A DNA stretch of 64,000 nucleotides from an uncultured Alphaproteobacteria bacterium (GCA_964474635.1 CAYYTT010000001.1:15930-79929); one strand, 5' to 3'; counted from the stretch's first letter, positions 4,403 to 50,410 are shown. Notes: generated by a model not told the origin, from the sequence alone. A program made the numbers and translations.

Positions 4403-6160
4403 ATGATCGCCATCCTTCTTCTGGCCCTTACGCCGCTTATCCCTGTGCCTGATCTTGGAGTGCTGACTCTCGGAGCGCCGGCCCTTGCGCAAACCGTGGG
4501 TCCCGGATCTCCAGTGCCGCCGGCCGCGCAGCCCCAAGACCCGCGCGAGCGCCTGCGCGTCCCCAGGCCACCCGATCCCCAGCCCGAGTTGAACATTCCC
4601 GCCTTCCGGGGCCTGATCCCGCCGGGCAGCGAAGTGGTGCAGGTCACCCTGGGCCGAGTCGTCTTCGAAGGCGCCACCGTCTTTGACGACACCGCCCTGG
4701 CGGCGCCGTTTCAGCCCCTTTTCGGCCAGCAGATCGCGCTTGCCCAGGTCTATGCCGCCGCCGCCGAGCTCCAGGCCCGGTATCGGGCAAAGGGGTATGT
4801 CCTGACACGGGTCGTGGTGCCGGCCCAACGCATCGACCGGGGCACCATACGCATCCGCGTGGTCGAAGGCTTCATCGATGAGGTGCTGATCGAGGGGGAA
4901 GTCGGATCGGCCCGCCGGCAGATTGAGCGGACGATGGCGCATCTGACGCGCCTGCGCCCCGTGCGCAACCGGGATCTTGAACGCTACCTCCTGCTCGCCA
5001 ACGACATTCCGGGCATCTCGGCGACGGGGGTGCTGCGGCCGGGCACGGGCGAAGCCGGGGCGACACAGCTTCTGGTCCGTGTACGGCGCAAACGGGCCGA
5101 CGGCTTTGTGACCTTCAACAACCGGGAATCGGAATTGACCGGCCCCCTTGCCGCAGCCGTGGGCGCCGGGGTCAACAGCCTGACCCGCCTCGGCGACCGC
5201 CTGGAGGGCCTTTACTTCGTGACGCTCGACAGCCAGGAGCCGACCCGCTTCACCTCCGGCAATCCCTTCGAGCAGAGTTTCGTCTTCGCGGCCTATGAGG
5301 CCCGCCTGACGGGTGAGGGCACGACCGCGCGCGTGGAGGCAAGCTATGGCGTCAGCCGGCCGGGCGCGCGCCTCGCGCCGCTCGACATTGAAAGCCGGGT
5401 CACTCGCTTCAAGGGCGAAGTCCGACATCCGGTCGTCCGTACCCGCGCAGCCAGCCTGTCGGCGGCCCTGTCGCTCGAATCGATCCTGGAGCGCACGGGC
5501 ATCGCCGGCAGTCTGATTGCCCGCGACCGGCTGACCGTCCTCGGCGTCGATTTGGAGGCGGAGCTTCGCGACACGCTGTTCCGTGTCGCGCGCAACACCT
5601 TCAGCCTGTCCCTGCGCCAGGGGCTGGAGATCCTGGGAGCGTCCTCGCCGGATGAGGGCCTGTCGACGCGGCCCGAGGGATCATCCGTCTACACCACCAT
5701 CGAGGCTTATCTGTCGCGCACCCAGTCCTTGAGCCCGCGCGTGGAACTGTTCGGGGAAGCCATTGGCCACTATGCCTCGCGCACGCTTTTGAGCCAGGCC
5801 GAATTCCGCATAGGCGGGGACCGTTTTGGCCGCGCGTTCGATCCCTCACAGCTTGCCGGGGAGCATGGTTTTGGTGTCGGCGCGGAACTGCGCTTCAACG
5901 GCTCCACGGGCTGGCGTTTCGTGCCCGGCTATCAACTCTACGCCTTTGGGGATGCCGCGCAGGTGCGCAACACCGACCGGGGTTTTGAGCCACGGGCATC
6001 CATCTGGTCGACGGGCGCCGGCATCCGGACCAATCTGCGCCCCTCCTCATGGACCGACATTCTTCTCGATCTGGAATATGCGCACGGGGAGAGCTTCGGC
6101 TCGGGCCCGGATCTCGAAACACAGGATCAGGCCTATGTGCGTGTCACCGCCCAGTTCTGA
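4403..6160 (+). CDS. Two-partner secretion outer-membrane transporter (TpsB; ShlB/FhaC/HecB family)
   Basis: ORF 4292..6160. Signal-like MIAILLLALTPLIPV...APALAQ begins at ATG 4403. ShlB-type POTRA block VTLGRVVFEGATVFDDTALAAPFQPLFGQQIALAQVYAAAAELQARYRAKGYVLTRVVVPAQRIDRGTIRIRVVEGFI. Beta-barrel-like C-terminus ends ...YVRVTAQF. Start 4292 versus 4403 is unresolved. Confidence 0.85.
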   Translation: MIAILLLALTPLIPVPDLGVLTLGAPALAQTVGPGSPVPPAAQPQDPRERLRVPRPPDPQPELNIPAFRGLIPPGSEVVQVTLGRVVFEGATVFDDTALAAPFQPLFGQQIALAQVYAAAAELQARYRAKGYVLTRVVVPAQRIDRGTIRIRVVEGFIDEVLIEGEVGSARRQIERTMAHLTRLRPVRNRDLERYLLLANDIPGISATGVLRPGTGEAGATQLLVRVRRKRADGFVTFNNRESELTGPLAAAVGAGVNSLTRLGDRLEGLYFVTLDSQEPTRFTSGNPFEQSFVFAAYEARLTGEGTTARVEASYGVSRPGARLAPLDIESRVTRFKGEVRHPVVRTRAASLSAALSLESILERTGIAGSLIARDRLTVLGVDLEAELRDTLFRVARNTFSLSLRQGLEILGASSPDEGLSTRPEGSSVYTTIEAYLSRTQSLSPRVELFGEAIGHYASRTLLSQAEFRIGGDRFGRAFDPSQLAGEHGFGVGAELRFNGSTGWRFVPGYQLYAFGDAAQVRNTDRGFEPRASIWSTGAGIRTNLRPSSWTDILLDLEYAHGESFGSGPDLETQDQAYVRVTAQF

Positions 6161-9100
6161 CCGGGCCCCGCCCCAAAGCGCGAAGCGGCTGCGCCTTTTC
6201 ACGGCCAGCGCTCTCGTCGGCGCGCTGGTGTCCCTGTCCGTGCCGGCCGAGGCCGGACCCACCGGCGGAACGGTCGTCGCCGGCGACGCCCTGATTTCAA
6301 CGCCCGGCGTGGGCACGACCTTAATCGAACAATCGAGCGACCGGGTCGTCATCGACTGGGACAGCTTTTCCATCGCCCCCGGAGAAATCACCCAGTTCGT
6401 ACAGGGCAGTCCGGATGCGGTCGCCCTCAATCGGGTGACGGGCGGAGCCTTGAGTGAAATCTTCGGTACCCTGAGCGCCGATGGCACCCTCTTTCTGGTG
6501 AACCCCGCCGGCATCTTGGTTGGCCAAGGCGGCATCGTGGACGTCCATGGGCTCGTCGCCAGCACGAGCGGCATCACGAACGAAAACTTCATGGCCGGAC
6601 GGTTCACCTTCGACCGGCCGTCGCAGGTGCCCGGTGCCAGCGTGATCAACCGCGGCACGATCTCCGTTAAGCAGGCTGGCATGGCCGCCCTGGTTGCCCC
6701 CGGGGTCGAAAATGCCGGCGTCATCGTAGCCGATCTTGGCCGGGCGGTCCTTGCCGGCGCGCAGCGTTTCACGGTCGATTTGTACGGGGACGGGCTCATC
6801 CAATTCGATGCCGGTCCGGCGGACGATGGGGACGGATCCGGCCAAGCCTTCAGCGCCGTGAACAACGGCACGATCCGCGCGGACGGCGGCCGTGTCCTGA
6901 TGACCACCGACGCGGCCGAGGCGCTACTGGGCTCGGTTGTGTCCATGGACGGGGTGATCGAAGCCCGCAGCGTATCAACCGAAAACGGAACCATCATCCT
7001 GGCCGGCGGCGAGAACGGCGCGGTCGAGGTTTCCGGCAGGCTTGACGCGCCCCGGGGCGCCATCTCGATCGCCGGAGATGCGGTGACCCTTGATCCGGAC
7101 GCATCGCTGCGCAGCGCTCCCGGGGGCGCAATCGCCATCGCGGCAGCGCGTCTCGACGTAACAGGCGATGGCGCGCTCGGCACCCTGGCCGCCGCGCCGC
7201 TCCAGGATGCGGTCGCCTCGGGCGGCAAGGTGACCCTCGCCGCGCAATCCGCGCTCACGATTGCCCAAGACGGCCTGCAGGTGAGCGACGACGGCCCCGC
7301 CGGCGCCCTGAGCCTTGAAGGCACGGCAGTCGCCATCGGCGGGCCGGTCGATTTGGCGGCCTCGGATCTCACAATCAGGGCCGACAGCCTTGCTCTTGAT
7401 GCGGACCTGACCGCTGCCACCATCCAGGTCGAGACGATCAGCGCCGGCCGGGATATTCGCCTCGGGTCCGGTGATGGCGCCCCGGCCGCCGGGCCCGCCC
7501 TTGCCTTTGACGATCTGACCCGCTTGATCACGCCGGCGCTGACGCTCAGGGCACCGCGGGGCACGGTACGCCTCGGGTCGCTCGACCTTGCCGGCGCAGG
7601 CTTCGGCGCCCTGACCGTGTCCGGGGGCGCTGTTCGTCTGTCCGGGGACATTGTTACCGGCGGACGCGATTTCACGGTGGATGGACCGGCTGTTCTCGTT
7701 GGCGATACCCGCCTCGTCACCGATGGCGGCGCGGCCCGGTTCGCCGGCTCCCTGGACAGCGCGGCGCAGATCACCAGCGCGGATCTGCCGTGGGCCTTGT
7801 CGGTGGAGGCGGGCCCCGGCGCGGCGGCCTTTGAGGACACCATCGGCGGCGAAGGTCCCCTTGCCGCCTTGAGCGTGCGGGCGGGCGACCTTGCCGCAGG
7901 CCCGGTTACAACGCTCGGCGCGATTGATCTGACCGGGATGGCGGGCACGCTCCTTGCCGGCGCGATCACAAGCCAGGAGGGTCCGGTCACGGTCGCGGGT
8001 CCCATCCGTCTGGCTGCGGATACATCCGTGAGCAGCGCCGCTGCGGTCCGTCTCGATCCGGTCATGGGTGGCGGGTTCGATCTCACCCTGGCGGCCTCGC
8101 CGAATGGTCCGATCACTCTGGCCGGCGGCTCAGGCCTTGGTGTTTTGAGTGTTGTGCAAGGGCAGACCTTTACTGCCGAGAGCGCGCTTACCGCGTCAGA
8201 GCTCTCCGTGAGCGGACTGACAGGTGCCGCATTGTTTTTTGGGTCCATCGCGGTGGACGGTGCCGGCCGGATCGAGGGGCCCGGCGGCGCGGTGTTCGAT
8301 GGGGGCCCGGACGGTACATTTCGCTTTGCCGGCGGGCTGACGGCCCTCGACGGACCGGTCAGCGCGCGCGGAACCCTCCTGGCCGGCGGCGGCGGTCTCA
8401 CACTGGCCGATTTCACGCCCGTCGGTGCCGCTCGGCTGGAAGGCTTGGGCGGTGCGGCCATCGACCTTGGGACGGTGTCCGCCGCGCCGAACGCCGCCCT
8501 GACCATCGACGCGGCCGTGCTGAGCGTGGAGGGCCCCGTCACCCTGCCCGATGGGACACTGACGGTGCTGCGAGCCCTGGAGGCACGTGTCACCGGCCCT
8601 GTCACGGCCGAGACCGTCCGCATCGCATCGAACGGCGGTACGGTTGTCCTTCTCGGTGCGCTTGAGACCGTTTCGGCCGACCTCGGCGGCGCCGCGCAAC
8701 TGCGCCTTGAAGCCCCCATTCGGGCGGACGCCCTGCGCCTGGCCGATCTCGGGTCCCTCGTCAGTACCGATCCCATCGCTGCGGGCACCCTCTCGCTTGA
8801 GACCATCGAGATGGCCATGCTCGGCGGGCCTTTGACCGCGGACAGCATGAGTGTGGACGCGCCGGGGGGCACCATTACCGTTCTTGAGACGCTCGATGCG
8901 GGACGACTCTCGGTCCTGGAGGCGGGCTCGGCACGGTTCGCGGGCCCTGTCATGGCGGGCGAAGTGGACCTTACGCCGTCGGCCGGGTCGGTGGTCTTCG
9001 ATGGCCCCCTCGCGGCGGACACGCTGACGACCGGGCCGGGGCCGTTTTCCCTGGACCTGATCGGCGGCGTGCGGATCACCGAGCCGGTTACCATCGCGAA

Positions 9101-40518: not shown

Positions 40519-41508
40519 TCATGTCGTGAGCAGTATAACGATCCGATCCATGGTCCAATACGCGGCAACACCGCCGATCACATAGGCGGGAATGGCCACG
40601 CCCCAGGACGGCAAGGCGAGTTTCATGGACCGGAAGGCCGCCATCAGGATCAGCACGCCGAATACGAAACCGATCTGCCCGATTTCGACACCAAGGTTGA
40701 AGGCGAGCAACGCAAGCAGCAAGCTGTTCTCCGGGAGGCCCAGATTGATGAGGGCGCTGGCGAAACCGAAGCCGTGCAAAAGGCCGAACCCGAAGGCAAC
40801 AATCCATGGGTGGCGAATGGTCAGGCTGGTTTCGCCGCGCTTTTGCTTGATGATCTCCACACCGATAAAGACGATGCTGAGCGCGATCAGCGCATTCACA
40901 AGCTGTTCCGGCACCCCGATGAAGCCGAAGGTCACGGCGGCGAGGGTCACACTGTGTGCAAGCGTGAAGGATGTGATGGTCTTAACCAGCATCCAGCGCG
41001 AGCGCACGATCCAGATGAGGCCGAGCACAAACATCAGGTGATCGATGCCGAGCATGATGTGCTCAACCCCGATGAAAACATAGGATTGGAAGACCTGGCG
41101 CCAAAGGTCCCAGCCTTCCCCGTTGAAGACCGGCTTCACATTTACGGAAGGAACGGCGGGGGTCAGGGTGAAGGCCTGGGTGAAGCCATTGGTGTAGTTG
41201 ACCCGGATCATTGCCGCAGACTGGCCGGCGCCAAGGCCTTCGAAACTCAGCGGTCCAACCAAACCCTCATCGCCGCAATCGACGAAGGGGGGATCAATCA
41301 CGCAGTGCTGGGGAAAAATCGGATTGAGATTTTCCGTACCCATGGGCCGGCTGCCCGGCCAGCGCATGGCGAAACGGCCATCATTGAGCTGCTCTAGCTC
41401 CAGCACGGACATGGAAAGGTCATGGGCCATGGCCGGACGCGGACCAATGACGGCCCACAGGACGGCGATGGCAAGCGCAATGAGACTGGCGAGGCGTAGC
41501 GGGCTCAC
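40519..41508 (-). CDS. HupE/UreJ-2 type membrane protein with an extra N-terminal periplasmic domain
   Basis: 329 aa. Signal peptide ...GPRPAMA|HDLS, then a ~130-aa soluble domain. Then YVFIGVEHIMLGIDHLMFVLGLI, SFTLAHSVTLAA, GLLHGFGFASAL and FNLGVEIGQ, which are typical of the HupE_UreJ_2 family. Third-position A/T is visibly more frequent than in flanking genes. Confidence 0.8.
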   Translation of the reverse strand: MSPLRLASLIALAIAVLWAVIGPRPAMAHDLSMSVLELEQLNDGRFAMRWPGSRPMGTENLNPIFPQHCVIDPPFVDCGDEGLVGPLSFEGLGAGQSAAMIRVNYTNGFTQAFTLTPAVPSVNVKPVFNGEGWDLWRQVFQSYVFIGVEHIMLGIDHLMFVLGLIWIVRSRWMLVKTITSFTLAHSVTLAAVTFGFIGVPEQLVNALIALSIVFIGVEIIKQKRGETSLTIRHPWIVAFGFGLLHGFGFASALINLGLPENSLLLALLAFNLGVEIGQIGFVFGVLILMAAFRSMKLALPSWGVAIPAYVIGGVAAYWTMDRIVILLTT

Positions 41509-42380
41509 TTGTCGGCCTCGCTGATTTTGCGGTTGCGGCGCGGCGCTTCGACGTCGGCATCAGGGTCGAAGAAGGACGCGGGCGGCTCGCTATAGGTCAC
41601 CGTGTACTGATCGCGCAGATCGGCAATCGCCTTGATCCCCGCCTGCTGCACGGCCCATTGCTGCCAGGCCCCCACCATGCTGGTGCGCACCTCTTCAAAA
41701 GGCGCCGTGCGCGCCGGATCAAGCCGGTCGAGCCGCAACACGGCCCAGCCATTGGGCGTTTCAACCGGCGTCCACATACCGATCTCCTGCGCCTCCAGAT
41801 TAGCCGTCAAATCCGGACCCAACAATTGCTCCACATTGGGCTTGGGCCGCACCTGAAACTGGAGCAGGCGCTGCCCCGGCTGCGAGGACGGCTCCTCGCC
41901 GGTTTCGTTCCAGGTCGCGGCCAGGGCCCGCGCCTCATCGCCATCCCCGGTCAAGCGCACGACCGAGAAGTCGAAAAAGGCCGGAAGCTGATAATCTTCC
42001 AGATTGGCGTTGTAGAAGGCGCGCAGGTCTTCTTCACGCGCAACGGGTTCTTCGATACTGCCGCCGATCATGACCCGCATCTTCTGCATGACCCGCTCCC
42101 GGATCATGTCATCGCCCTGGTTCAGCTGCAGACCGAGGGCCTCGCGGTAAAGCACTTCGTTGTCGACCCAAACATCGACCAGGGGCGCGATTTCCTCGCG
42201 GGTCGGGCGCCGTCCGGCCGCGTCCTGGTAGGTCGCCGCAAGATCCTCGTAGACGGATTGGGTCACGGTGATCTGCCGAGGATCGGCCTTGCCCAATTCA
42301 GTGATGGCGTTGGCGCCGTACAGAACCACACCGATGAGCGCAAAATGCACCAATGGCTCGCGCATCATGCCGCCGACCAT
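41505..42380 (-). CDS. Membrane-anchored PpiC/parvulin-like peptidyl-prolyl isomerase (Rotamase_2-like)
   Basis: 291 aa. N-terminal anchor REPLVHFALIGVVLYGA. EIAPLVDVWVDNEVLYREALGL, DDMIRERVMQKM and WTPVETPNGWAVLRLDRL are typical of this family. 4-nt overlap with the downstream HupE-2 gene. Confidence 0.7.
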   Translation of the reverse strand: MVGGMMREPLVHFALIGVVLYGANAITELGKADPRQITVTQSVYEDLAATYQDAAGRRPTREEIAPLVDVWVDNEVLYREALGLQLNQGDDMIRERVMQKMRVMIGGSIEEPVAREEDLRAFYNANLEDYQLPAFFDFSVVRLTGDGDEARALAATWNETGEEPSSQPGQRLLQFQVRPKPNVEQLLGPDLTANLEAQEIGMWTPVETPNGWAVLRLDRLDPARTAPFEEVRTSMVGAWQQWAVQQAGIKAIADLRDQYTVTYSEPPASFFDPDADVEAPRRNRKISEADK

Positions 42381-42814
42381 GACCTGCCCCTTTATTGCGG
42401 AAACGGAATTATGGAAACGGATTTACGTAAGCCTCCGGGCTCCCCGCATTCGTCGCCCGAAAGACTGATGTACCTAAACCGAGACCGTTGACAGTTTGAT
42501 GACACGCGGCAGAAACGCACCAAAACAGATGTCAGTGCACTGCAAGACACCAAAAGGAGGTCGGGCCAAGCGAAATGTTATACTGTATCAAATCCAATCG
42601 AGCCCATCGCGTTGCCATGCGACATCTTTTTAATTTCACCGCGTCTGTTTCGCGAAAACGGCGTTTTGCGCCAAGACGACTAAGCCGTCCGAGCACTGTA
42701 ATAAATCTGTCACTAAAAACTCATGCAGCCGTCATCGACTGCCGGTAAGGCCCTAGGGTACGGGGTTTTGCAGACGTGAAATCTCGGCAAATCCATAATC
42801 TCTAGAGGGCTGTC

Positions 42815-45016
42815 ATGAAATCTCTTTTAAAAGGCACGACCGCGCTCGCCGGCGTTTTCGTCGCCGGCGGTGCTCTTGCCGCTGAAGTTCCGACCCTGAC
42901 CCAGGACGTTGCCCAAGAGCAGTCCCGTCAGCTGATCGAAGATCTCGCCAACGAAGCCGCGTTCGCACAAATCCCGAACCTGCGCGCTGGTAGCCCGATG
43001 TCCGCAGCCGGTGAGCTGCTGAACCGCGGCGAATACCTGGCTGGCGACAAGCACAACCACACCACCTGCTCGGATGGCTCCACGTCTCCGAAGGTGCTGG
43101 CTGACCAGGCCCTCGTGGCCTTCGGCCTCGACTGGTTCGGCATGGTCGGTCACGGTGGTTCCGGCACGCGCGACTGCCGCTTCACCGACATCGATTACAC
43201 CACGCTGATCGGCGGCCCGGTTGCCGAGCGCGTGTTCCGCCAAGGCCAGGGCGACGGCGGTGCCCTGTGGGTCGACACCATCGGTGAAGACGCCATCCTC
43301 GGCGACGAGAACCGCTCCACCTCGCGCGTGACCGACAATCCGGAAACAGAAGAGCGCGAGCGCGCCAAGGCCATGTGGCGCTGGCAGTCCGTGCGGGACT
43401 TCCAGTACCAGGACGTCATGCTGTCCGGCATTCAGGCCGGTAAGCCGGCCTTCACCGGCCTTGAGTGGGTCGTGCCGGGCCACGAGCACGCTTCGTCAGC
43501 CGTGCTGGACGGTCAGTTCCCGAATGGTGAGATCGAGCAGCTTGGCAACGCCAACGCCCAGGCCCAGTTCGAATATCTCTGGGACCGCGCCGACAACGAC
43601 TTCTCCGGCGGTAAGGAAGCCGGCTTCGAGTCGATCCGTAACGGCGGCCTGCCGAAAGAGCCGAACGTGGCCGGCGACCACCCCAAGTCGGTCCGCGCCG
43701 TTGAGTGGCTGCGCGCCAACTATCCGGTGACGTCCTTTGCCGTGGCCGCTCACACCGAGCGTCAGGGCGCCTTTGTTCCGGGTCAAAACCGCGGTTACAA
43801 CGTCGAGCACCTGCGTGACTGGCACAATGCCGGCCTGCTCGCCGACGACATCACCGCCTATTCCCTGTCCTTCGGCGCCGAGATCCAGGCCGGCCACCAG
43901 GCCGCCTCTGATCGTGGCACCTACTCTCCGGGCCGTCCGTCCGCCGGTTTCGGCACCTATGGTGGTAACGGCGCCTATGCCGCTGCTGAAGTGGCTCTGC
44001 CGGGCAAGACCTTCGACGGCGAAGATCTGACGGCGGAAGATCTGGAAGGCACGGGCATCAACCCGGGTCTCCTGGACTCCACGCCCGAGCGCATCGTTCT
44101 GGGTCGTCCGGGCGTGCGCACCCTCTGGGACGCCATGCTCGGTGAAGGCCGCCGCTTCTTCCTGGTCGGTTCGTCCGACTGGCACAACCGCGGTTCCTTC
44201 GGCCCCTACGAGCCGCAGTCCACGCTCGACTTCTTTCCGGGCGAATACCAGAAAATGTACAGCTACGTGCCGAACTCGGTTGAAACCAACCTGGCCGAAG
44301 CCGTCGTCGCGGGTCTGCGTTCGGGCAACACCTACACGGTCATGGGCGATCTGGTCGGCGACGACCTGGCGTTCGTGGCGTGCTACGACATCACCGGCGA
44401 ATGCGTGACGATGGGTCAGACGCTCGAAGTCTTCGAAGGCGAAGGCAATGTCGAGTACATGATCCGTCTGACGGATCCGGAAGGTGCAAACAACAGCCCG
44501 TACTTCTTCCCGAATGCGTCGCTGTACCAGCTCGGCATCGAAATCCCGACCAACGAGCCGGTGCTGCACCACGTCGACATCATCACGGGCGACGTGACCG
44601 GCGAGATCACGCCGGACATGCCGGAATACACCACCAACAACTCCAACCCGTCGACGCAGATCTTCTTCACGTTCGACGAAACCAACTGGGTTGAAGAAGA
44701 AGGTGGTGTCCGGATCATGACGTGGTCCGTGCCGGTGGCCGACATGGACGGCGACAGCTATGTCCGTTTCCGCGGCACCAACATCCCGCAGGGTACGCCC
44801 AACGAGCAGGATGCCGACGGTAACCCGCTGTTCGACGGCGCGTCCGACAACATCGTCTGCCCGTTCGAAAACCCCGAGTCCGATGGACTGTTCAACCCGA
44901 ACTTCTGCCCGGATCACCTGCCGGTGATCGACGGCACGAAGCGGATCTCCTTCGGTCTTGAGGCCTGGACAGACCTGTGGGTCATGGGCAACCCGATCTT
45001 CATCCAAGTGAAGTGA
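42815..45016 (+). CDS. Secreted PHP-fold (polymerase/histidinol-phosphatase-like) metal-dependent hydrolase, function unknown
   Basis: 733 aa. Signal peptide MKSLLKGTTALAGVFVAGGALAAEVP. PHP-type metal ligand motifs in order: GDKHNHTTCSDGS (HxH), GMVGHGGSG, VVPGHEHAS, AVAAHTERQG, VGSSDWHNRG (DxH). Codon usage is visibly different from its neighbours (frequent ggt, cgt, ccg, gaa, ttc, aac). Confidence 0.65.
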   Translation: MKSLLKGTTALAGVFVAGGALAAEVPTLTQDVAQEQSRQLIEDLANEAAFAQIPNLRAGSPMSAAGELLNRGEYLAGDKHNHTTCSDGSTSPKVLADQALVAFGLDWFGMVGHGGSGTRDCRFTDIDYTTLIGGPVAERVFRQGQGDGGALWVDTIGEDAILGDENRSTSRVTDNPETEERERAKAMWRWQSVRDFQYQDVMLSGIQAGKPAFTGLEWVVPGHEHASSAVLDGQFPNGEIEQLGNANAQAQFEYLWDRADNDFSGGKEAGFESIRNGGLPKEPNVAGDHPKSVRAVEWLRANYPVTSFAVAAHTERQGAFVPGQNRGYNVEHLRDWHNAGLLADDITAYSLSFGAEIQAGHQAASDRGTYSPGRPSAGFGTYGGNGAYAAAEVALPGKTFDGEDLTAEDLEGTGINPGLLDSTPERIVLGRPGVRTLWDAMLGEGRRFFLVGSSDWHNRGSFGPYEPQSTLDFFPGEYQKMYSYVPNSVETNLAEAVVAGLRSGNTYTVMGDLVGDDLAFVACYDITGECVTMGQTLEVFEGEGNVEYMIRLTDPEGANNSPYFFPNASLYQLGIEIPTNEPVLHHVDIITGDVTGEITPDMPEYTTNNSNPSTQIFFTFDETNWVEEEGGVRIMTWSVPVADMDGDSYVRFRGTNIPQGTPNEQDADGNPLFDGASDNIVCPFENPESDGLFNPNFCPDHLPVIDGTKRISFGLEAWTDLWVMGNPIFIQVK

Positions 45017-45076
45017 TGCACGGCGGCGGCACTGCGGTGCCACGACCGTTTGCAGCACTGATCTTGTGACGATCCT

Positions 45077-45102
45077 GGACGGGGGCCCTCGGGCCCCCGT
45101 CC
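45077..45102 (+). terminator. GC-rich stem-loop downstream of the PHP-fold gene
   Basis: ggacgggggc (45077-45086) pairs exactly with gcccccgtcc (45093-45102), with a 6-nt centre cctcgg. No U-tract follows, so intrinsic-terminator function is uncertain. Confidence 0.35.
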
Positions 45103-45258
45103 GCACATCCGGCACCGGAGCGGGGCTTGCCCACTCGGCATATCCGCCGCGCCGGGTCAGGCTCGTGACGTCCGGCACGTCCGGCGCTCAAAGTTCAGAT
45201 CGGGCGGGACATCATGGACCGCACTGGCTGACAAAGTTATGGTGCCACGCGTGAAGCC

Positions 45259-47988
45259 TTGGGCGCTTCGGCCGCAGGCTCGTCCGCTTCCAGAAGGATT
45301 GCTTCGGTGACCCGATCTCTCGCCGCTCTCGTCTATGCCGTCCTTGTGCTGTCGGGCTTTGCCGGCCTCGGCTACCAGGCCGTCTGGACACGGATGGTAG
45401 CCCAGGGCGTGGGCCATGAATATGTGGCCGCCCTCGGCGTGGTCGCGGCCTTCTTTTGCGGTCTCGGGCTTGGCAGCCTGTGGCTCGACGGCCGGATCAG
45501 CCGCAGCGCGCGCCCCGCCGCGTGGTACGCGGCCCTTGAAGCCATTATCGGCGTCTGGGCGCTGGCCCTGATCTGGCTCATCCCGGCGGTCAACGCGGTG
45601 CTGCCCAGCTGGCTTGGGCCCGCGCCGGCCGCGCATGTTCACTGGCTGACGGCCTTCGCCGCGCCCTTTGTCCTGTTTCTGCCGGCGACCCTGGCCATGG
45701 GGGGAACCCTTCCGGCCGCCGACCGGCTGGTCATGCGCCTGCGCGGGGATGGACTGGGCCTCGGCGGCGTTTACGGCGCCAACACCTTCGGCGCCATGGC
45801 CGGCGCCCTTGCGACAACCTTTTTCATCGTCCCGGCCGCGGGCTACAGCACGAGCCTGGTGATCCTGGCCCTGATCAATGGCGTTGCGGCCCTGGCCCTC
45901 ATCATGGGGCCGCTGCGCGACGACGCCGCCCCCATGGCGACCTGCGCGTCTCGTGACCCCGCTCCGGCGGCACCGACCGTCCTCCTGGGCCTTCTGTTTG
46001 CCACCGGCCTCCTTGGCATTGGGTATGAGGTCGTGGCAATCCGCGCGCTCTCCCAGGTTCTGGAAAACACGGTCTTTTCTTTTGCCGCCCTCCTGGCGAC
46101 CTATCTTCTCGGGACGGCCATCGGCGCGGGCCTTTATCACCGCCACACCGTCAGGCGCGGTGCGACGCGCGACGCCGTGGCGGATCTACCCCGCCTGCTA
46201 CAGCTCCAGGCCCTCACCGGCCTTCTGGGCGTTGCCGCCCTGTGGATCGTGCCCGATTTGTATCGCTCCGTACGCGCATGGCCTCTGGAGGGGACGAGCG
46301 CAGCGATCCTGGCGGAACTTGCCGCCGGCGCGGCCGTCTTCCTTCTACCGACCATGGTGATGGGCGCGGTCTTCACCGCGCTTGCGCAAACCCTGCGCCG
46401 GCCCGACGGGGGCGTCGGCACCGCGATGGCCGCGAACACCTTCGGTGCGGCCTGTGCGCCGGTGCTGTTCGGCATTTTGATTTTGCCGCAGGCCGGCGTC
46501 GTGGCCACCCTCGCCATGATCTGCGCGGCCTATCTGGTTCTTTTGCCGGCGGCACGCATGGACATCATTGCGCCCAGTGCCGCCCTCGCCGCGGCGGCGG
46601 CCGTTTTGGTGCTCGGCCCCGTGAAACCGAGCCTTTTGGATCTGCCCGAAGGCACCCAGCTGCACCGCAGCATTGAGGGCGTCATGGGCACCGTAACGGT
46701 GTATGCGGATGACGCCGAAAACCGCTATCTGAAGGTCAACAACCACTTTGTCATGGGCGGCACGGCCACCAAGATGGCCGACCGGCGCCAGGGCCACGGG
46801 CCCCTGCTGCTCCACCCCAATCCGAAAAAGGCGCTTTTTCTGGGTGTGGGCACGGGCGCAACCTTTGCGGCGGCGGCCTACCATCCAGACCTGACGGCCG
46901 ATGCCGTGGAACTCGTTCCCGAAGTCCTCGATGTGCTGCCCGATTTCGAGGCCGTCTCGGGCGAACTCGCACAAGCCGAAACGCTACGCCTTTATGCGGC
47001 CGATGCCCGCCGCTTCGTGGCCTCCACCAGTGAGCGATATGACGTGATCGTCTCGGATACCTTCCATCCGTCCCGGGACGGGGCGGGACTGCTTTATACG
47101 GTGGAACATTTCGAAGCGATCCGGGACCGGCTGGCCGAAGGCGGCCTGTTCTGCCAATGGCTGCCGCTGCACCAGCTCGATCTGGACACCTTGAAGGTGA
47201 TCATCCGATCCTTCCTGGCGGCCTATCCGGACGGGATTGCCGTGCTCAACGACAACAGTCTGATGACGCCGGTGGTGGGCTTGATCGGCGGGCGTGGGCC
47301 CCTCGCCGTGCCGGCCATGACCGTGCCGCCGCGCCCCCTGCTTGCCGCGATGCAGGCCTCGGGCCTTGTCTCCCCGGTTCCAGGGCTTGAGGGCTTCGTG
47401 GCCGGCCCCGATGCGCTGAAGGCGTATGCGGGTCCTGGTCCACTGAACACGGATGATCATCCCCTGGTGCTGTTCAATGCGCCGCGCGCCGTTTATGACG
47501 GTCTCGGACCGGCCTCCGAACGGGCCTTGAGTTTCGTTGAGGATCTGCAACGCACGCCGCCTCAGGGTCTGCTGCCGGTCCAGGCGGAAGGCCGCATGCC
47601 CACCTATTGGCGGGCCCGGGACCGGTATCTGGTGCTCGGCTCCATGGTGATGAACCGGTGGGGCGGCGCGTCGGACGCGGCCGACAGGTTGGACCGTCAA
47701 TTGATCGAGATCTTGAACATCAGCAGCGATTTCGCACCGGCCTATGAGGCCTTGCTGCGCCGGGCCCTCGATCTGCATGAGAACGATCCGCCGCGCACGC
47801 TGGTCCTCTTGATGAACATGGTGGCCGCCAACCCGTCGCGCCGGGAAGCCTATGACCTCATCTCGCGCTGGTTCCCCGGCGCGATCCCGGGCGCTGAAGC
47901 GCCGTCCCTCAACATTATGCCGGCCATGCCCGGCGCACCCGACCCGGGCGGGGTCGAGGGGCGCGCCCTCGAAGGAGAGCAGCCGTGA
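45259..47988 (+). CDS. Fused polytopic membrane (MFS-like) / spermidine synthase-like protein with C-terminal helical-repeat region
   Basis: 909 aa. ~12 hydrophobic helices in the first ~480 aa (LVLSGFAGLGYQAVWTRM...). Then a class I SAM/aminopropyltransferase-like core: KKALFLGVGTGATFAAAAYHP...ADAVELVPEVL...YDVIVSDTFHPSRDGAGLLYTVEHFEAIRDRLAEGGLFCQWL. Start is TTG 45259 or GTG 45307. The stop overlaps the next start (GTGA). Confidence 0.8.
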   Translation: MGASAAGSSASRRIASVTRSLAALVYAVLVLSGFAGLGYQAVWTRMVAQGVGHEYVAALGVVAAFFCGLGLGSLWLDGRISRSARPAAWYAALEAIIGVWALALIWLIPAVNAVLPSWLGPAPAAHVHWLTAFAAPFVLFLPATLAMGGTLPAADRLVMRLRGDGLGLGGVYGANTFGAMAGALATTFFIVPAAGYSTSLVILALINGVAALALIMGPLRDDAAPMATCASRDPAPAAPTVLLGLLFATGLLGIGYEVVAIRALSQVLENTVFSFAALLATYLLGTAIGAGLYHRHTVRRGATRDAVADLPRLLQLQALTGLLGVAALWIVPDLYRSVRAWPLEGTSAAILAELAAGAAVFLLPTMVMGAVFTALAQTLRRPDGGVGTAMAANTFGAACAPVLFGILILPQAGVVATLAMICAAYLVLLPAARMDIIAPSAALAAAAAVLVLGPVKPSLLDLPEGTQLHRSIEGVMGTVTVYADDAENRYLKVNNHFVMGGTATKMADRRQGHGPLLLHPNPKKALFLGVGTGATFAAAAYHPDLTADAVELVPEVLDVLPDFEAVSGELAQAETLRLYAADARRFVASTSERYDVIVSDTFHPSRDGAGLLYTVEHFEAIRDRLAEGGLFCQWLPLHQLDLDTLKVIIRSFLAAYPDGIAVLNDNSLMTPVVGLIGGRGPLAVPAMTVPPRPLLAAMQASGLVSPVPGLEGFVAGPDALKAYAGPGPLNTDDHPLVLFNAPRAVYDGLGPASERALSFVEDLQRTPPQGLLPVQAEGRMPTYWRARDRYLVLGSMVMNRWGGASDAADRLDRQLIEILNISSDFAPAYEALLRRALDLHENDPPRTLVLLMNMVAANPSRREAYDLISRWFPGAIPGAEAPSLNIMPAMPGAPDPGGVEGRALEGEQP

Positions 47989-48722
47989 GCGAGACCGACA
48001 CGAAGGAACCGGCCGGCACCCGTTCCGCCCCCGGCGCCCCAGCCCAAAGCAAGGCCGCGGGGCCCGCCGGCAGCGGCGCGCCCGCCGATCAACTCGCCCA
48101 GCCCGTCACCCAAAGTATGACGGTGGCGTTTCCCACGCCCATCGTCATGCATGACTGGCCCGACAGCGACGATCTCAACGCGGCCCTGCAAAACCTCATC
48201 CTCGCCGAGGAGGAGCGCGACAAGGGCCTTGTCAAAAGTAATGTGGGCGGGTGGCATTCCGCACTCGATTTTCTGCACCGGGACGAAGAGCCCCTGCAGC
48301 GCATCCTCGCGCGCATGCGCAATCTGATGATGGCCCTGATCCCGGAGACCATGGCCGCGCCGAAAACCGACTCCCACCTGCGCATGGCGATCGAGGCGTG
48401 GGCCAATGTTCTGCGCGCCGGCGAGTACAACACCATTCACAATCACCCCAACGCGACCTGGTCGGGTGTCTACTACGTCACCGGCAATCAGCACACGATT
48501 TCGGGCCGTGCCCTGCCCTTCGCCGGCAAACTGGAGTTCGTCGACCCGCGCCCGGGCGCGAGCATCAGCTACCAGAACAACTCGAAGCTCTACGGGCGCT
48601 GCATGGTCGAGCCTCAGGCCGGGCGGATGGTCATGTTCCCCTCCTGGCTCCAGCACTTCGTGCACCCTTGTGCCGGTGCGGGCGAGCGGATATCGATCGC
48701 GTTCAATGTGTTAATGCGCTGA
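47985..48722 (+). CDS. TIGR02466-type putative 2OG-Fe(II) oxygenase
   Basis: 245 aa. GGWHSALDFLH, ANVLRAGEYNTIHNHPNATWSGVYYV, GKLEFVDPRPGA, GRMVMFPSWLQHFVHPC...ERISIAFNV. Confidence 0.8.
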   Translation: MSETDTKEPAGTRSAPGAPAQSKAAGPAGSGAPADQLAQPVTQSMTVAFPTPIVMHDWPDSDDLNAALQNLILAEEERDKGLVKSNVGGWHSALDFLHRDEEPLQRILARMRNLMMALIPETMAAPKTDSHLRMAIEAWANVLRAGEYNTIHNHPNATWSGVYYVTGNQHTISGRALPFAGKLEFVDPRPGASISYQNNSKLYGRCMVEPQAGRMVMFPSWLQHFVHPCAGAGERISIAFNVLMR

Positions 48723-48737
48723 GGCGAGGTTGCGGCG

Positions 48738-49367
48738 ATGGATGAGGTCATTCCCCTGTTCCCCACACCGGTGATGGTGTGCAAGGGTGTCGTCGATCCC
48801 GACACGCTGGTGAGCTTTAACGAGGACCTGGCGGGCGAAACCTGGTTTCGCAACAAGCACACGGATCTTTTGACCCACACTGAGGTGGTCAATCCGTCCT
48901 CGAACAAGATGTTCCTGAAGCTGCGCAAGATGGTTTTGCCGAAAATCACCGATTTCGGCGTCCAGATGTTCGGGGAAAAGCTCAATTGGACCGTGAAGGA
49001 AATGTGGGTGAACATCCTGCATCCGGGCGGTTTCCAGGCCACCCATTCCCACGCGAACAGTTTTGTCTCGGCCGTGATTTACCTGACGCCGTTCCACCCG
49101 TCCTGCAATCTGGTGATCCATCGCAATGGCGGCGGCGGTCTCGACTTCGTGTTCAACAATTCCCACGAAAACATGCAGCATGGGCCTTTCAATGCCGCCA
49201 AATGGCAGTGCCCGTCCCTTGGCGCCGGCGACATGATCCTGTTTCCCAGTTATATGCTGCATGAAGTGCCGCGCAATGAGGGCGATACGCGGCGCGTCTC
49301 CATCGCCATGAATGCGATTCCGGATCGGCTCAATTCCTGGGGCTATCAGATCAAATTCGGTAAATAG
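48738..49367 (+). CDS. TIGR02466-type putative 2OG-Fe(II) oxygenase, second paralogue
   Basis: 209 aa. WVNILHPGGFQATHSHANSFVSAVIYL, GDMILFPSYMLHEVPRNEGDTRRVSIAMN. Visibly lower GC than the preceding paralogue. Confidence 0.8.
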   Translation: MDEVIPLFPTPVMVCKGVVDPDTLVSFNEDLAGETWFRNKHTDLLTHTEVVNPSSNKMFLKLRKMVLPKITDFGVQMFGEKLNWTVKEMWVNILHPGGFQATHSHANSFVSAVIYLTPFHPSCNLVIHRNGGGGLDFVFNNSHENMQHGPFNAAKWQCPSLGAGDMILFPSYMLHEVPRNEGDTRRVSIAMNAIPDRLNSWGYQIKFGK

Positions 49368-49572
49368 GGTTCTGCGCCAGGACCGCGCCGCAGACCTGTT
49401 TGCACCAATCCGCAAACTGCTCTTCCGACCGGCGGCCCTCTCAACCCATCGTGATCGCGAGCGCAGGAACACGATCCAAAGCGGCGGGCACGGAGCGTGT
49501 GGCCCTGGATGGCTTCGCGTGCGCTCGCCATGACGATGACTTGAGAAGACCGCCGGCAGGTTTTGCCTCGGC

Positions 49573-50127
49573 TTACTGGGGAACCTGCGTGCTGGCGGGG
49601 GCTGCGTCGCCCGATTTGGACACGTCGACCTTCTGGAAATTGGCAACAGGTTTCTTGGTGATTTTGTCCGTCTCGCCGCGCATCACCAGGATTTCATCCC
49701 AGGAGGCATCGCCGTCCCGATTGGTGTCGGCGGCGGAGATCAGTCGCTCCAGGTGGTTGGCGTAGTCAATATGGTTGGCCAGATCGTCCCCGTCCGGATC
49801 CATCTCGTCGAAATAAGCGTTCCGGATGCCGGTCCAGTATTCGTGGACGAAGGTCACATACTCCTCGCGGCTGAGCATGCCGGACCGGTCGAGATCCATC
49901 CGCCGGAACAGAGTGCCTGCGTGTTCGGCGACCTCGCCCGTGTTCACATAGCCCTCATTGGTGCAGTCCATCACGTAAAAGATGCCCGCAAGACCGGCCG
50001 CGGTTGCGACGGGCGGCACATCCTTGGGCGCGGCGGCTTTTTTCGATGCGACGGGCTCGGCCTGCGCCCCGGTCAACAGACCGGCGGCCAGGGCGATACC
50101 GCCCAAAAGCAGTGTCATACGGCTCAT
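49573..50127 (-). CDS. Secreted EF-hand calcium-binding protein
   Basis: ORF trimmed to MSRMTLLLGGIALAAGLLTGAQA at 50127, with GAGGAGGGA just upstream. EF loops: DLDRSGMLSREE, DPDGDDLANHIDYANH and DTNRDGDASWDE. Confidence 0.8.
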   Translation of the reverse strand: MSRMTLLLGGIALAAGLLTGAQAEPVASKKAAAPKDVPPVATAAGLAGIFYVMDCTNEGYVNTGEVAEHAGTLFRRMDLDRSGMLSREEYVTFVHEYWTGIRNAYFDEMDPDGDDLANHIDYANHLERLISAADTNRDGDASWDEILVMRGETDKITKKPVANFQKVDVSKSGDAAPASTQVPQ

Positions 50128-50410
50128 GGTATCCCTCCTCTTCCCGGGCACGCCGACCCAATTTCAGGGGCCAGTCGCTCCTGCGCGTTGGGTGCGCTTT
50201 CGCACAAGGGTCCTACCACAGATTACAGCAAAACGCAGCGGTTCCACGCGCCTTTGCGTGCGTCGCATGCCACGCCGTCCCCCCTTGCATTGATTTCCGG
50301 CGACACCCTCTGTATGCCGGTCAATGTGCGACATTATGGGAAATTGTAGCCCAGGCAATGGTCACCCCGGTTCCTTTGGGGCGTGCCTTGCGCTGGAGGG
50401 GAAACCGACC

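What the first reader, a model, noticed from the sequence alone, without database searches (positions are those of the whole stretch)
45259..49367. Operon of a fused 12-TM/spermidine-synthase-like protein with two TIGR02466-type 2OG-Fe(II) oxygenases
Seen: the 909-aa protein joins a polytopic membrane domain to an aminopropyl/methyl-transferase-like core (GVGTGATF, VIVSDTF) and a C-terminal helical region. Its stop overlaps the start of the first oxygenase gene (GTGA at 47985-47988). A second oxygenase paralogue follows after 15 bp. Established: both families are widespread but have no assigned substrates. Classical spermidine synthases are soluble. Inference: the three genes may make or modify a membrane-associated or exported polyamine-like or alkylated compound, with hydroxylation by the two oxygenases. 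The tight coupling argues for a single pathway.
Basis: partly seen in the sequence, partly recalled or inferred. Interest (0 to 1): 0.6.

Follow-up and report, generated by a model that had tools for sequence, protein, structure and literature searches.

The report
Outward-facing transferase-transporter with oxygenase partners
The three genes are real and recur together, but the big "spermidine synthase" fusion lacks the residues for polyamine synthesis, probably faces the periplasm, and belongs to an undescribed cluster built around a secreted metal-dependent hydrolase that appears phosphate-starvation regulated.

Summary
The genes are a 909-aa ORF (893 aa from the better GTG start), then two PF13759/TIGR02466-type oxygenase genes. 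The first is coupled by a GTGA overlap; the second follows after 15 nt.

Linkage is conserved. An OX2-type oxygenase lies next to the fused gene in 23 of 80 related loci, usually with overlapping stop and start codons.

The polyamine reading is not supported:
- The acidic residue of the SpeE GGG(D/E)G motif is Thr/Ser/Ala in 52 of 54 homologues and never acidic.
- The putrescine-binding motifs are absent.
- The genome has a canonical SpeE and SpeD elsewhere.

Structure models show an MFS transporter, a 13th apolar helix, a SpeE-fold domain and a helical tail. Charge bias puts the last two in the periplasm, as implied for the fungal His1 methyltransferase NHMT.

The trio is part of a larger module. 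A secreted PHP-like hydrolase is always next to this clade of the fused gene. A PPIase-like protein, a HupE_UreJ_2 permease and the oxygenase join in Pseudomonadota. Two Pho-box-like sites lie in the divergent promoter upstream.

Best reading: a phosphate-starvation envelope module. The fusion exports a SAM-like donor to its own outward-facing transferase domain, and the cytoplasmic oxygenases are accessory. The chemistry is unresolved.

The parts
42488..42505 (-). Pho-box-like site GTGTCATCAAACTGTCAA, 108 nt upstream of the PPIase-like gene start
   Evidence: It matches CTGTCAT-N4-CTGTCAT at 12 of 14 positions. Only 19 such sites occur in the 4.3-Mb genome, and two of them fall in this 434-bp intergenic region.
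42696..42735 (+). Pho-box-like array of four 7-mers in 11-bp phase (CTGTAAT aaat CTGTCAC taaa AACTCAT gcag CCGTCAT). It ends about 80 nt before the ATG of the PHP-like gene.
   Evidence: Like sites occur in the equivalent promoters of L002, L003, L012, L018 and L043.
40519..41508 (-). HupE_UreJ_2 permease with an extra periplasmic N-domain. The mature N-terminus is His-Asp.
   Evidence: PF13795, E = 2.9e-46. It recurs in the module. The AxA|H-[DE] cleavage context is invariant in about 21 homologues.
41505..42380 (-). Membrane-anchored parvulin-like (Rotamase_2) PPIase or chaperone
   Evidence: PF13145, E = 1.3e-15. It recurs in the module.
42815..45016 (+). Secreted 733-aa PHP-like metallohydrolase, the constant neighbour of this clade of the fused gene
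   Evidence: It has a signal peptide and invariant HxH, H, HEH, H-E and D-H motifs. It gives weak hits to PHP phosphoesterases and to the NF038032 domain. It lies next to the fused gene in 29 loci, and all 26 of those placed in the tree form one clade.
45077..45102 (+). GC-rich hairpin after the PHP-like gene, with no T tract
   Evidence: L001 and L002 carry a canonical terminator at the same place.
45307..46551 (+). Fused protein: 12-TM MFS-fold domain (about residues 17-431; an alternative TTG start lies at 45259)
   Evidence: The AF2 model has pLDDT 92.8. All 50 top Foldseek hits in the PDB are MFS transporters. K/R bias shows the N-terminus is inside.
46558..46614 (+). 13th, fully apolar helix (residues 434-452), predicted to carry the chain across the membrane
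   Evidence: It is preceded by K/R and is hydrophobic in all 54 homologues.
46657..47463 (+). SpeE-fold (SpdS-like) transferase domain, residues about 467-735. G529, G533, E551, D582 and D600 are kept; the SpeE acidic residue is T532.
   Evidence: Foldseek TM-scores of 0.61-0.74, normalised by target length, to SpeE structures. Profile E = 1e-28 to 3anx and 1uir.
47464..47871 (+). C-terminal helical (TPR-like) domain, residues 736-871, followed by a disordered tail
   Evidence: DSSP of the model. Longer homologues extend this repeat region.
47985..48722 (+). OX1: TIGR02466/PF13759 Fe(II)/2OG-oxygenase-like protein, no export signal, start overlaps the stop of the fused gene
   Evidence: Present only in L001, L002, L012 and L030; a remnant in L003.
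48738..49367 (+). OX2: PF13759 oxygenase-like protein, the type that recurs next to the fused gene
   Evidence: HxH...H and RxS are invariant.

Best explanation
The three genes are the downstream part of a conserved envelope module, probably induced by phosphate starvation, whose constant core is a secreted PHP-like metallohydrolase plus the fused protein.

The fused protein is not a polyamine synthase. It is a 12-helix MFS transporter, a 13th helix that carries the chain out of the cytoplasm, and a periplasm-facing SpeE-fold domain with a helical tail. That domain keeps the AdoMet-type nucleotide-binding residues but lacks the acidic residue that selects decarboxylated SAM.

Inferred mechanism: the MFS domain passes a SAM-like donor (or another small cytoplasmic substrate) to the transferase domain docked above it. 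That domain then alkylates, most likely methylates, an exported target. This mirrors the fungal 7-TM SpdS-like enzyme NHMT, which methylates His1 of secreted proteins after signal-peptide cleavage. Candidate targets are module proteins: the PHP-like hydrolase, or the invariant mature His1 of HupE_UreJ_2.

The two oxygenases are cytoplasmic Fe(II)/2OG-type accessory enzymes, translationally coupled to the fusion. They probably make or consume the small molecule that the MFS domain carries. OX2 is the conserved partner and OX1 is a dispensable paralogue.

Shown: gene structure, folds, motif loss and retention, conserved linkage, Pho-box-like sites.
Inferred: topology, donor, target and the role of the oxygenases.
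For: - Fold: the full-length AF2 model has pLDDT 91.9 and pTM 0.92. The soluble part matches SpeE structures (profile E = 1e-28). The membrane part matches only MFS transporters.
- Topology: mean K/R is 1.8-3.8 in the N-terminus and the odd-numbered loops, against 0.1-1.4 in the even-numbered loops, over 54 homologues. TM13 is fully apolar and preceded by K/R. MFS termini are canonically cytoplasmic (established knowledge).
- Not an aminopropyltransferase: position 532 is T45/S4/A2 and never D or E. The DG..Q..DE..YHE region is absent, while two PRK03612-type paralogues in the same genome keep it. A canonical SpeE and SpeD lie elsewhere.
- Still a likely enzyme: G529, G533, E551, D582, D600 and the FCQWLPL block are conserved in at least 90% of homologues.
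- Precedent: NHMT AN4663 is a 7-TM plus SpdS-like protein without that acidic residue. It methylates secreted LPMOs only after signal-peptide cleavage (PMC10349129).
- Module: PHP-like hydrolase, PPIase-like protein, HupE_UreJ_2, OX2 and the fusion recur together, often as one operon. All 26 PHP-linked fusions form one clade with SH-aLRT 100.
- Coupling: the OX2 stop and the fusion start overlap by 1 to 11 nt in most Burkholderiales loci.
- Phosphate link: two Pho-box-like sites lie in the 434-bp divergent promoter, out of 19 in the whole genome. Such sites occur at 0.43 per kb in module promoters and 0.008 per kb elsewhere across 29 loci. In L004 a PstS-like gene starts 4 nt after the fusion.
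- The oxygenases start at a conserved FPTP motif with no signal peptide.
Against: - No bacterial SAM-dependent reaction outside the cytoplasm is established, and SAM export is pure inference.
- The topology is predicted, not measured. I could not inspect the model coordinates.
- No Pho-box-like site lies directly before the fused gene. A hairpin (window) or a canonical terminator (L001, L002) separates it from the PHP-like gene.
- Most Sphaerotilaceae loci show no Pho-box-like site by my simple consensus. That comparison also sets intergenic DNA against mostly coding DNA, which inflates the ratio.
- The role of cytoplasmic oxygenases beside an outward-facing enzyme is unexplained.
- The deltaproteobacterial members lack both the oxygenase and HupE_UreJ_2 genome-wide (these are MAGs). 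Neither can therefore be the universal partner or target.
- The hydrolase is called PHP-like on motifs plus weak hits only (E = 0.14).
Confidence: 0.45

Rival explanations
1. One reading: the fusion and the oxygenases make, hydroxylate and export a polyamine-like or otherwise alkylated small molecule, for example a nicotianamine-type metallophore made by aminocarboxypropyl transfer from SAM. The transferase domain would be in the cytoplasm and the MFS domain would be the exporter.
For: - The SpeE fold has a conserved catalytic-position Asp, D600.
- Loss of the acidic residue would allow SAM as donor.
- An MFS fold suits export.
- The oxygenases are cytoplasmic and translationally coupled to the fusion.
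- HupE-type metal permeases sit next door.
Against: - K/R bias, the MFS fold and the apolar TM13 place the domain outside the cytoplasm.
- The polyamine-binding residues are absent.
- Deltaproteobacterial members of the same clade lack the oxygenase genome-wide, so hydroxylation is not integral to the function.
- No other biosynthetic genes recur in the module.
Confidence: 0.15
2. An uptake and scavenging system. The outward-facing SpeE-fold domain is a non-catalytic binding module for a nucleoside- or amine-containing product of the secreted hydrolase. It feeds the MFS domain, which acts as an importer, and the cytoplasmic oxygenases then degrade the imported compound. This would resemble TauD-, PhnY- or TmpA-type 2OG oxygenases in nutrient scavenging.
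For: - The ribose- and adenine-binding positions E551 and D582 are retained.
- The context looks phosphate-regulated, and L004 has an adjacent PstS-like gene.
- The oxygenases are cytoplasmic.
- The top MFS structural neighbour is an organophosphate transporter, SLC37A2. However, the E-values hardly separate it from the other MFS hits.
Against: - Conservation extends beyond a binding site to D600, H603, P604 and the FCQWLPL acceptor-side block across distant phyla, which suggests catalysis.
- I know of no precedent for a SpeE-fold substrate-binding domain on an importer.
- The oxygenase is absent in basal clade members.
Confidence: 0.15
3. Phosphorus-free membrane-lipid remodelling, comparable to MprF, BtaA or OlsC. 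The transferase domain would add an amino-alkyl head group to a lipid, the MFS domain would flip it, and the oxygenases would hydroxylate it.
For: - Pho regulons commonly include lipid-remodelling genes (established knowledge).
- MFS lipid flippases exist: MFSD2A and Spns1 are among the structural hits.
- shc lies 1 kb downstream in the window and in L001 and L002.
Against: - shc linkage is confined to the closest alphaproteobacterial relatives.
- No acyltransferase or other lipid gene recurs in the module.
- An outward-facing domain would lack its donor just as in the best explanation.
- The PF13759 oxygenases are soluble, unlike the lipid hydroxylases LpxO and OlsC.
Confidence: 0.07

Closest known systems
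Spermidine synthase / polyamine aminopropyltransferase SpeE (PF01564, TIGR00417; e.g. PDB 1uir, 3anx, 1inl, 2o06)
   Same: It shares the N-terminal beta-domain plus Rossmann fold (Foldseek TM-scores of 0.61-0.74, normalised by target length; profile E = 1e-28). The glycine loop, the ribose-binding Glu, the adenine-binding Asp and the first catalytic-loop Asp are kept.
   Different: It has no acidic residue in GGG(D/E)G, no putrescine-binding motifs, and His in place of the second Asp of the DxxDP loop. It is fused to 13 TM helices and a helical tail, and is predicted to lie outside the cytoplasm. It scores far below every SpeE equivalog cutoff.
Fungal N-terminal histidine methyltransferase NHMT (A. 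nidulans AN4663; PMC10349129); the SpdS-like C-terminal domain of human METTL13 is a related case
   Same: A polytopic membrane anchor with an odd number of helices is followed by a SpdS-like domain whose GxG(D/E)G acidic residue is replaced. The enzyme acts on secreted proteins after signal-peptide cleavage, so it works on the far side of the membrane and uses SAM rather than dcSAM.
   Different: NHMT has 7 TM helices reported as unique to filamentous fungi. Here there is a 12-TM MFS domain plus one helix, a TPR-like tail and a bacterial periplasm. Homology of the membrane parts was not tested, and no substrate is known here.
NCBIfam NF037959 'fused MFS/spermidine synthase' and PRK03612-type membrane-anchored SpeE
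   Same: The protein scores above the NF037959 cutoff. Its 6-TM half aligns weakly with the 6-TM anchor of two PRK03612-type paralogues in the same genome.
   Different: The PRK03612-type paralogues keep GGGDG and DG..Q..DE..YHE. NF037959 is a name, not a demonstrated function.
TIGR02466 / PF13759 (2OG-FeII_Oxy_5) proteins, e.g. structural-genomics entries 3bvc and 2rg4, and cyanophage and phycodnavirus homologues
   Same: Same family (E = 1e-7 to both PDB entries), with the conserved HxH...H and RxS motifs.
   Different: I found no member with an assigned substrate. These copies are distinguished by translational coupling to the MFS/SpdS-like fusion.
Pho-regulon secreted phosphatase systems (PhoX, PhoD, PhoA; Pho-regulated LapA with the Hxc type II secretion system of P. 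aeruginosa)
   Same: A secreted metal-dependent hydrolase lies behind Pho-box-like sites with metal-handling and folding helpers. In this window a type II secretion operon follows the divergent arm.
   Different: The hydrolase is PHP-like, not PhoA, PhoD or PhoX. No known Pho system contains an MFS/SpdS-like fusion or a PF13759 oxygenase.

Membership tests
SpeE aminopropyltransferase (PF01564 / TIGR00417) | SpeE fold: beta-sheet N-domain plus Rossmann core | tested here: met
   Foldseek top 50 hits are all SpeE, with TM-scores of 0.61-0.74 normalised by target length. Profile E = 1.3e-28 to 3anx.
SpeE aminopropyltransferase (PF01564 / TIGR00417) | Acidic residue in GGG(D/E)G that selects decarboxylated SAM | tested here: not met
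   The motif reads GVGTG. Position 532 is T45/S4/A2/P1/V1 in 54 homologues, with no D or E.
SpeE aminopropyltransferase (PF01564 / TIGR00417) | Amine-substrate residues (DG..Q, DE..YHE, second Asp of DxxDP) | tested here: not met
   The protein reads VNNHFVMGG...ADRRQGH and DTFHP. Paralogues in the same genome read DGHIQFSSEDEHRYHE and DFPDP.
SpeE aminopropyltransferase (PF01564 / TIGR00417) | Score above the curated equivalog cutoff | tested here: not met
   TIGR00417 scores 45.1 against a cutoff of 249.55. NF002010 scores 59.2 against 260. NF002956 scores 59.8 against 472.
NF037959 fused MFS/spermidine synthase | Score above cutoff, with an MFS-fold N-domain and a SpdS-like C-domain | tested here: met
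   55.4 bits against a cutoff of 40. The membrane part matches only MFS structures. The soluble part matches SpeE.
TIGR02466 / PF13759 Fe(II)/2OG oxygenase-like | Family score above cutoff | tested here: met
   OX1: TIGR02466 86.5 (cutoff 62.5) and PF13759 86.8. OX2: PF13759 72.4 (cutoff 27), but TIGR02466 54.7, below its cutoff.
TIGR02466 / PF13759 Fe(II)/2OG oxygenase-like | Metal triad and 2OG-binding RxS | tested here: inconclusive
   H103, H105, H175 and R186 (OX2 numbering) are invariant in 29 sequences, followed by Ser or Thr two residues after R186. The triad reads HxH, not the usual HxD/E. Activity was not tested.
NHMT-like membrane SpdS-fold protein methyltransferase | Neutral residue at the GxG(D/E)G position | tested here: met
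   T532 here; I322 in NHMT (PMC10349129).
NHMT-like membrane SpdS-fold protein methyltransferase | Catalytic domain on the far side of the membrane | tested here: inconclusive
   Predicted from K/R bias, the MFS fold and the apolar TM13. No experiment and no coordinate inspection.
NHMT-like membrane SpdS-fold protein methyltransferase | Methylation of the N-terminal His of a secreted protein | not testable with these tools
   There is only a candidate: HupE_UreJ_2 of the module always matures to His1-[DE]. Basal clade members lack that gene.
Pho regulon | Pho box upstream of the transcription unit | tested here: inconclusive
   Two sites matching 12 of 14 positions lie in the PPIase/PHP divergent promoter, with 52-fold enrichment across loci. 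None lies in the PHP-fusion gap.

The most novel reading that the evidence does not exclude
Bacteria export SAM through the MFS half of this fusion and use it outside the cytoplasm. The outward-facing SpdS-fold domain would methylate exported proteins after signal-peptide cleavage, for example the invariant N-terminal His of the HupE_UreJ_2 metal permease or the secreted PHP-like hydrolase. This would tune a metal-dependent phosphate-scavenging machine. It would be the first extracytoplasmic SAM-dependent protein methylation in bacteria and a bacterial counterpart of fungal NHMT.
Probability: 0.15. Interest if true: 0.85.

Novelty: new variant of a known kind. Interest (0 to 1): 0.62.

Why it matters
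- Proteins of this family are annotated 'spermidine synthase' in public records. This clade lacks the residues for that activity and probably faces the periplasm, so the label is misleading.
- If the topology and SAM use are confirmed, it would establish cofactor export and alkyl transfer in the bacterial periplasm, a compartment where no SAM-using enzyme is established.
- It would give the first functional context for PF13759/TIGR02466 oxygenases, which are also common in cyanophages and algal viruses.
- It points to an unstudied gene module, probably controlled by the Pho regulon, found in Alpha-, Beta- and Gammaproteobacteria, deltaproteobacteria and Myxococcota.
- Cultured carriers exist for testing: Pelomonas sp. 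KK5, Rhodoferax lacus, Paucibacter sp. B2R-40, Roseateles oligotrophus and Xanthobacter aminoxidans.

Tried and rejected
- **dcSAM availability.** SpeD is present in 11 of 13 carrier genomes, so this does not discriminate between readings.
- **Hopanoid link through shc.** The gene neighbours the operon only in the closest alphaproteobacterial relatives. Rejected as coincidental synteny.
- **HupE_UreJ_2 His1 as the universal target.** Rejected as universal, because the deltaproteobacterial PHP-linked members have no PF13795 gene in the genome. These are MAGs, so absence is not certain.
- **Rosetta-stone argument.** The genome has a TPR-PF13759 fusion at G000:C156. Its TPR region shows no similarity to the helical tail of the fusion.
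- **Horizontal origin of OX2.** Its GC3 is 0.76, within the range of its neighbours (0.76-0.84). Only its overall GC is lower.
- **Sequence search of the membrane domain against the PDB.** No hit. The fold search was needed.
- **Consensus scans.** They found no promoter-like site in 42300-50400 and no terminator-like site at either end of the fusion-OX1-OX2 unit.
- **Literature.** Searches for TIGR02466, PF13759, 'fused MFS' and phosphate starvation with spermidine synthase found no functional study.

Full report
**1. Observation**

Three co-directional ORFs occupy 45259-49367:
- a 909-aa protein at 45259-47988;
- a 245-aa protein at 47985-48722;
- a 209-aa protein at 48738-49367.

The stop of the first overlaps the GTG of the second (GTGA). 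The sequence GAAGGAGAG lies 6 nt upstream of that GTG. The third gene follows after 15 nt.

Pfam and NCBIfam confirm the families:
- PF01564 matches residues 512-633 of the large protein.
- NF037959 'fused MFS/spermidine synthase' scores 55.4 bits (cutoff 40).
- OX1 scores 86.5 bits on TIGR02466 (cutoff 62.5).
- OX2 scores 72.4 bits on PF13759 but only 54.7 bits on TIGR02466, below its cutoff.

The public gene call for the large protein is 893 aa (P0004). That fits a GTG start at 45307 with AGAAGGA 8 nt upstream.

**2. Is the linkage conserved?**

A scan of one genome per species returned 80 loci that encode relatives of the large protein, here called FUS.

A tblastn search with the window's proteins finds an OX2-type oxygenase next to FUS in 23 loci. 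These come from Alphaproteobacteria, many Burkholderiales, Steroidobacter, a Pseudomonadales genome and Hydrogenophaga.

In 13 of 16 beta- and gammaproteobacterial loci a FUS start codon lies within 25 nt of the OX2 stop. In most of these the two overlap by 1 to 11 nt.

OX1-type genes occur only in L001, L002, L012 and L030. L003 keeps only a C-terminal remnant. The conserved partner is OX2, and OX1 is dispensable.

**3. The unit is larger than three genes**

The same mapping shows that three more genes travel with FUS:
- the secreted 733-aa protein upstream (42815-45016);
- a membrane-anchored Rotamase_2 PPIase-like protein (41505-42380, minus strand);
- a HupE_UreJ_2 permease (40519-41508, minus strand).

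In several Sphaerotilaceae the order PHP-PPI-HupE2-OX2-FUS forms one tight operon.

An IQ-TREE tree of 54 FUS proteins puts all 26 PHP-linked FUS in one clade with SH-aLRT 100. Twenty of them also carry the oxygenase.

The deltaproteobacterial members have PHP and FUS only. Their genomes show no PF13759 or PF13795 match anywhere. These are MAGs, so absence is not certain. PHP and FUS are the core, and the oxygenase and HupE_UreJ_2 are additions in Pseudomonadota.

The 733-aa protein has a signal peptide and invariant HxH, H, HEH, H-E and D-H motifs. It gives only weak hits to PHP-family phosphoesterases (E = 0.14) and to the CehA/McbA metallohydrolase domain (41.9 bits against a cutoff of 80). 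'PHP-like' is therefore probable, not proven.

**4. What FUS is**

An AF2 model built from 54 homologues is confident (pLDDT 91.9, pTM 0.92).

The soluble part matches SpeE structures. The top 50 Foldseek hits are all SpeE, with TM-scores of 0.61-0.74 normalised by target length. The family profile reaches E = 1.3e-28.

The membrane part was modelled alone (pLDDT 92.8). It matches only MFS transporters in the top 50 hits, including SLC37A2, VAChT, OxlT, VMAT2 and NorC, with TM-scores of 0.40-0.62 across both normalisations. The 'MFS' label is therefore structurally supported.

Thirteen helices are present. Over 54 homologues the mean K+R count is 3.8 for the N-terminus and 1.8-3.3 for loops 2-3, 4-5, 6-7, 8-9, 10-11 and 12-13. 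It is 0.1-1.4 for the alternate loops.

This gives the canonical MFS topology with both termini inside. Helix 13 (residues 434-452) is then a fully apolar segment of about 19 residues, preceded by K/R. It should carry the SpeE-fold and helical domains to the periplasmic side. This is a prediction; I could not inspect coordinates.

**5. Catalytic residues**

The AdoMet-type positions are kept in at least 90% of homologues. These are G529, G533, E551 (ribose), D582 (adenine), D600 (the catalytic-loop Asp) and an FCQWLPL block.

The acidic residue of GGG(D/E)G is Thr in 45 of 54 homologues and never Asp or Glu. In SpeE that residue selects decarboxylated SAM (cited in PMC10349129).

The amine-binding motifs DG..Q..DE..YHE are absent, and the second Asp of DxxDP is His.

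The genome has a canonical soluble SpeE (159 bits) about 3 kb from SpeD on contig C17. It also has two PRK03612-type membrane SpeEs that keep every canonical motif.

FUS is thus a divergent SpeE-fold protein. It probably binds SAM or a related nucleoside and is not a polyamine synthase.

**6. Precedent**

The fungal enzyme NHMT (AN4663) has a 7-TM anchor followed by a SpdS-like domain. In that domain Ile replaces the same acidic residue.

NHMT resides in the ER. It methylates His1 of secreted LPMOs only after correct signal-peptide cleavage, and it needs its membrane domain (PMC10349129). The authors note that SAM supply in the ER may be limiting.

This is the closest working analogue: an odd number of helices, a SpdS-fold domain on the far side of the membrane, and SAM rather than dcSAM as donor.

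In the module here, HupE_UreJ_2 always matures to an N-terminal His followed by Asp or Glu. The AxA|H-[DE] context holds in about 21 homologues. That makes it a candidate target in Pseudomonadota, but it cannot be the universal one.

**7. Phosphate link**

The 434-bp region between the PPIase-like gene and the PHP-like gene holds two sites that match CTGTCAT-N4-CTGTCAT at 12 of 14 positions, one facing each gene. The plus-strand site extends to four phased repeats.

Only 19 such sites exist in the 4.3-Mb genome. About 0.002 would be expected in this region by chance.

Across 29 module loci such sites occur at 0.43 per kb in module promoters and 0.008 per kb elsewhere. Positive loci include L002, L003, L012 and L043. 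In L018 the site lies before OX2-FUS.

This comparison sets intergenic DNA against mostly coding DNA, so the ratio is inflated. Most Sphaerotilaceae loci score negative.

In the Myxococcota locus L004 a PstS-like binding-protein gene starts 4 nt after FUS.

Against a direct link, no such site lies in the PHP-FUS gap. A hairpin separates the two genes in the window, and a canonical terminator does so in L001 and L002, about 45 nt before FUS. FUS, OX1 and OX2 are therefore transcribed either by attenuated read-through or from their own promoter.

**8. The oxygenases**

H103, H105, H175 and R186 (OX2 numbering) are invariant in 29 sequences, with Ser or Thr two residues after R186. This gives an HxH...H-x10-RxS pattern, typical of 2OG oxygenases except for His at the usual Asp/Glu position.

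The nearest solved structures, 3bvc and 2rg4, are uncharacterised. I found no paper that assigns a substrate to the family.

Both proteins start directly with the conserved FPTP motif, or with a low-complexity extension in OX1, and have no export signal. They should therefore be cytoplasmic.

Their tight coupling to a protein whose enzyme domain is predicted to be outside is the main unexplained point. The simplest reconciliation is that they act on whatever the MFS domain carries.

**9. Verdict**

Best reading (confidence about 0.45): a conserved envelope module, apparently Pho-regulated, in which FUS is a transporter fused to an outward-facing SAM-type SpdS-fold transferase and the oxygenases are cytoplasmic accessories.

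Earlier notes of this scan reached similar readings on other genomes. I treated them as leads and re-tested the Pho-box and topology claims here. They are not independent evidence.

Noticed in passing
window 42381-42814: Two Pho-box-like sites of opposite orientation lie in the divergent promoter. The minus-strand arm (PPIase-like gene and three HupE-type genes) runs straight into the type II secretion operon, which begins with gspE according to another first-stage note. That secretion system might therefore be Pho-controlled, like Hxc in Pseudomonas aeruginosa.
   Followed up: partly
window 40519-41508 (-) and homologues in about 21 loci: HupE_UreJ_2 proteins of the module always have a signal peptide cleaved as AxA|H-[DE], so the mature protein starts with His. 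That residue may be an N-terminal metal ligand.
   Followed up: partly
L020:12756-13376, L021:2878-3516, L029:3027-3767, L032:3444-4106, L033:4742-5344; fragment at L027:3-281: A conserved PEP-CTERM protein of about 200 aa, with the motif YSGLNGTGTLLAS, sits inside or beside the module in six Burkholderiales loci. In L032 and L033 it lies directly before OX2-FUS.
   Followed up: partly
L003:8511-8879: A decayed remnant of the OX1-type gene: only the C-terminal approximately 30 residues (PSWLQHFVHP...ISIAFNV) remain, while OX2 is intact.
   Followed up: yes
L004:4485-5294: A PstS-like phosphate-binding protein gene starts 4 nt after FUS in a Myxococcota MAG. A PAS histidine kinase / response-regulator hybrid follows it.
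   Followed up: partly
G000:C36:5970-6515 and G000:C61:10570-11130 (L085, L086): Two PRK03612-type membrane SpeEs keep all canonical dcSAM and putrescine motifs. From my reading of their sequences they have seven helices, and for the C36 copy the loop K/R pattern would place the enzyme domain outside too. The 6-TM unit aligns weakly with each half of the FUS MFS domain, which suggests that FUS arose by duplication of that unit.
   Followed up: partly
G000:C156 (L083:13-1824): A third PF13759 domain in this genome is fused to about 400 residues of TPR repeats in a 603-aa protein with no export signal.
   Followed up: partly
window 49573-50151 (-): A secreted EF-hand protein scores weakly on lanmodulin (29 bits against a cutoff of 135). 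It is syntenic with the operon in L001-L003, and L001 has a Pho-box-like site just upstream of it (at 7245, minus strand).
   Followed up: partly
L002:1183-5889; L015:5953-11209: There are tandem duplications of module genes: two PHP-like genes in a row in L002 and two FUS paralogues in a row in L015.
   Followed up: no
L001 about 2440-2480; L002 about 5930-5965: A canonical intrinsic terminator (GCGGAGGCCCC...GGCCTCCGCTTTTCC) lies between the PHP-like gene and FUS, only about 45 nt before the FUS start. This suggests attenuated read-through rather than a separate promoter.
   Followed up: partly
   Followed up: no
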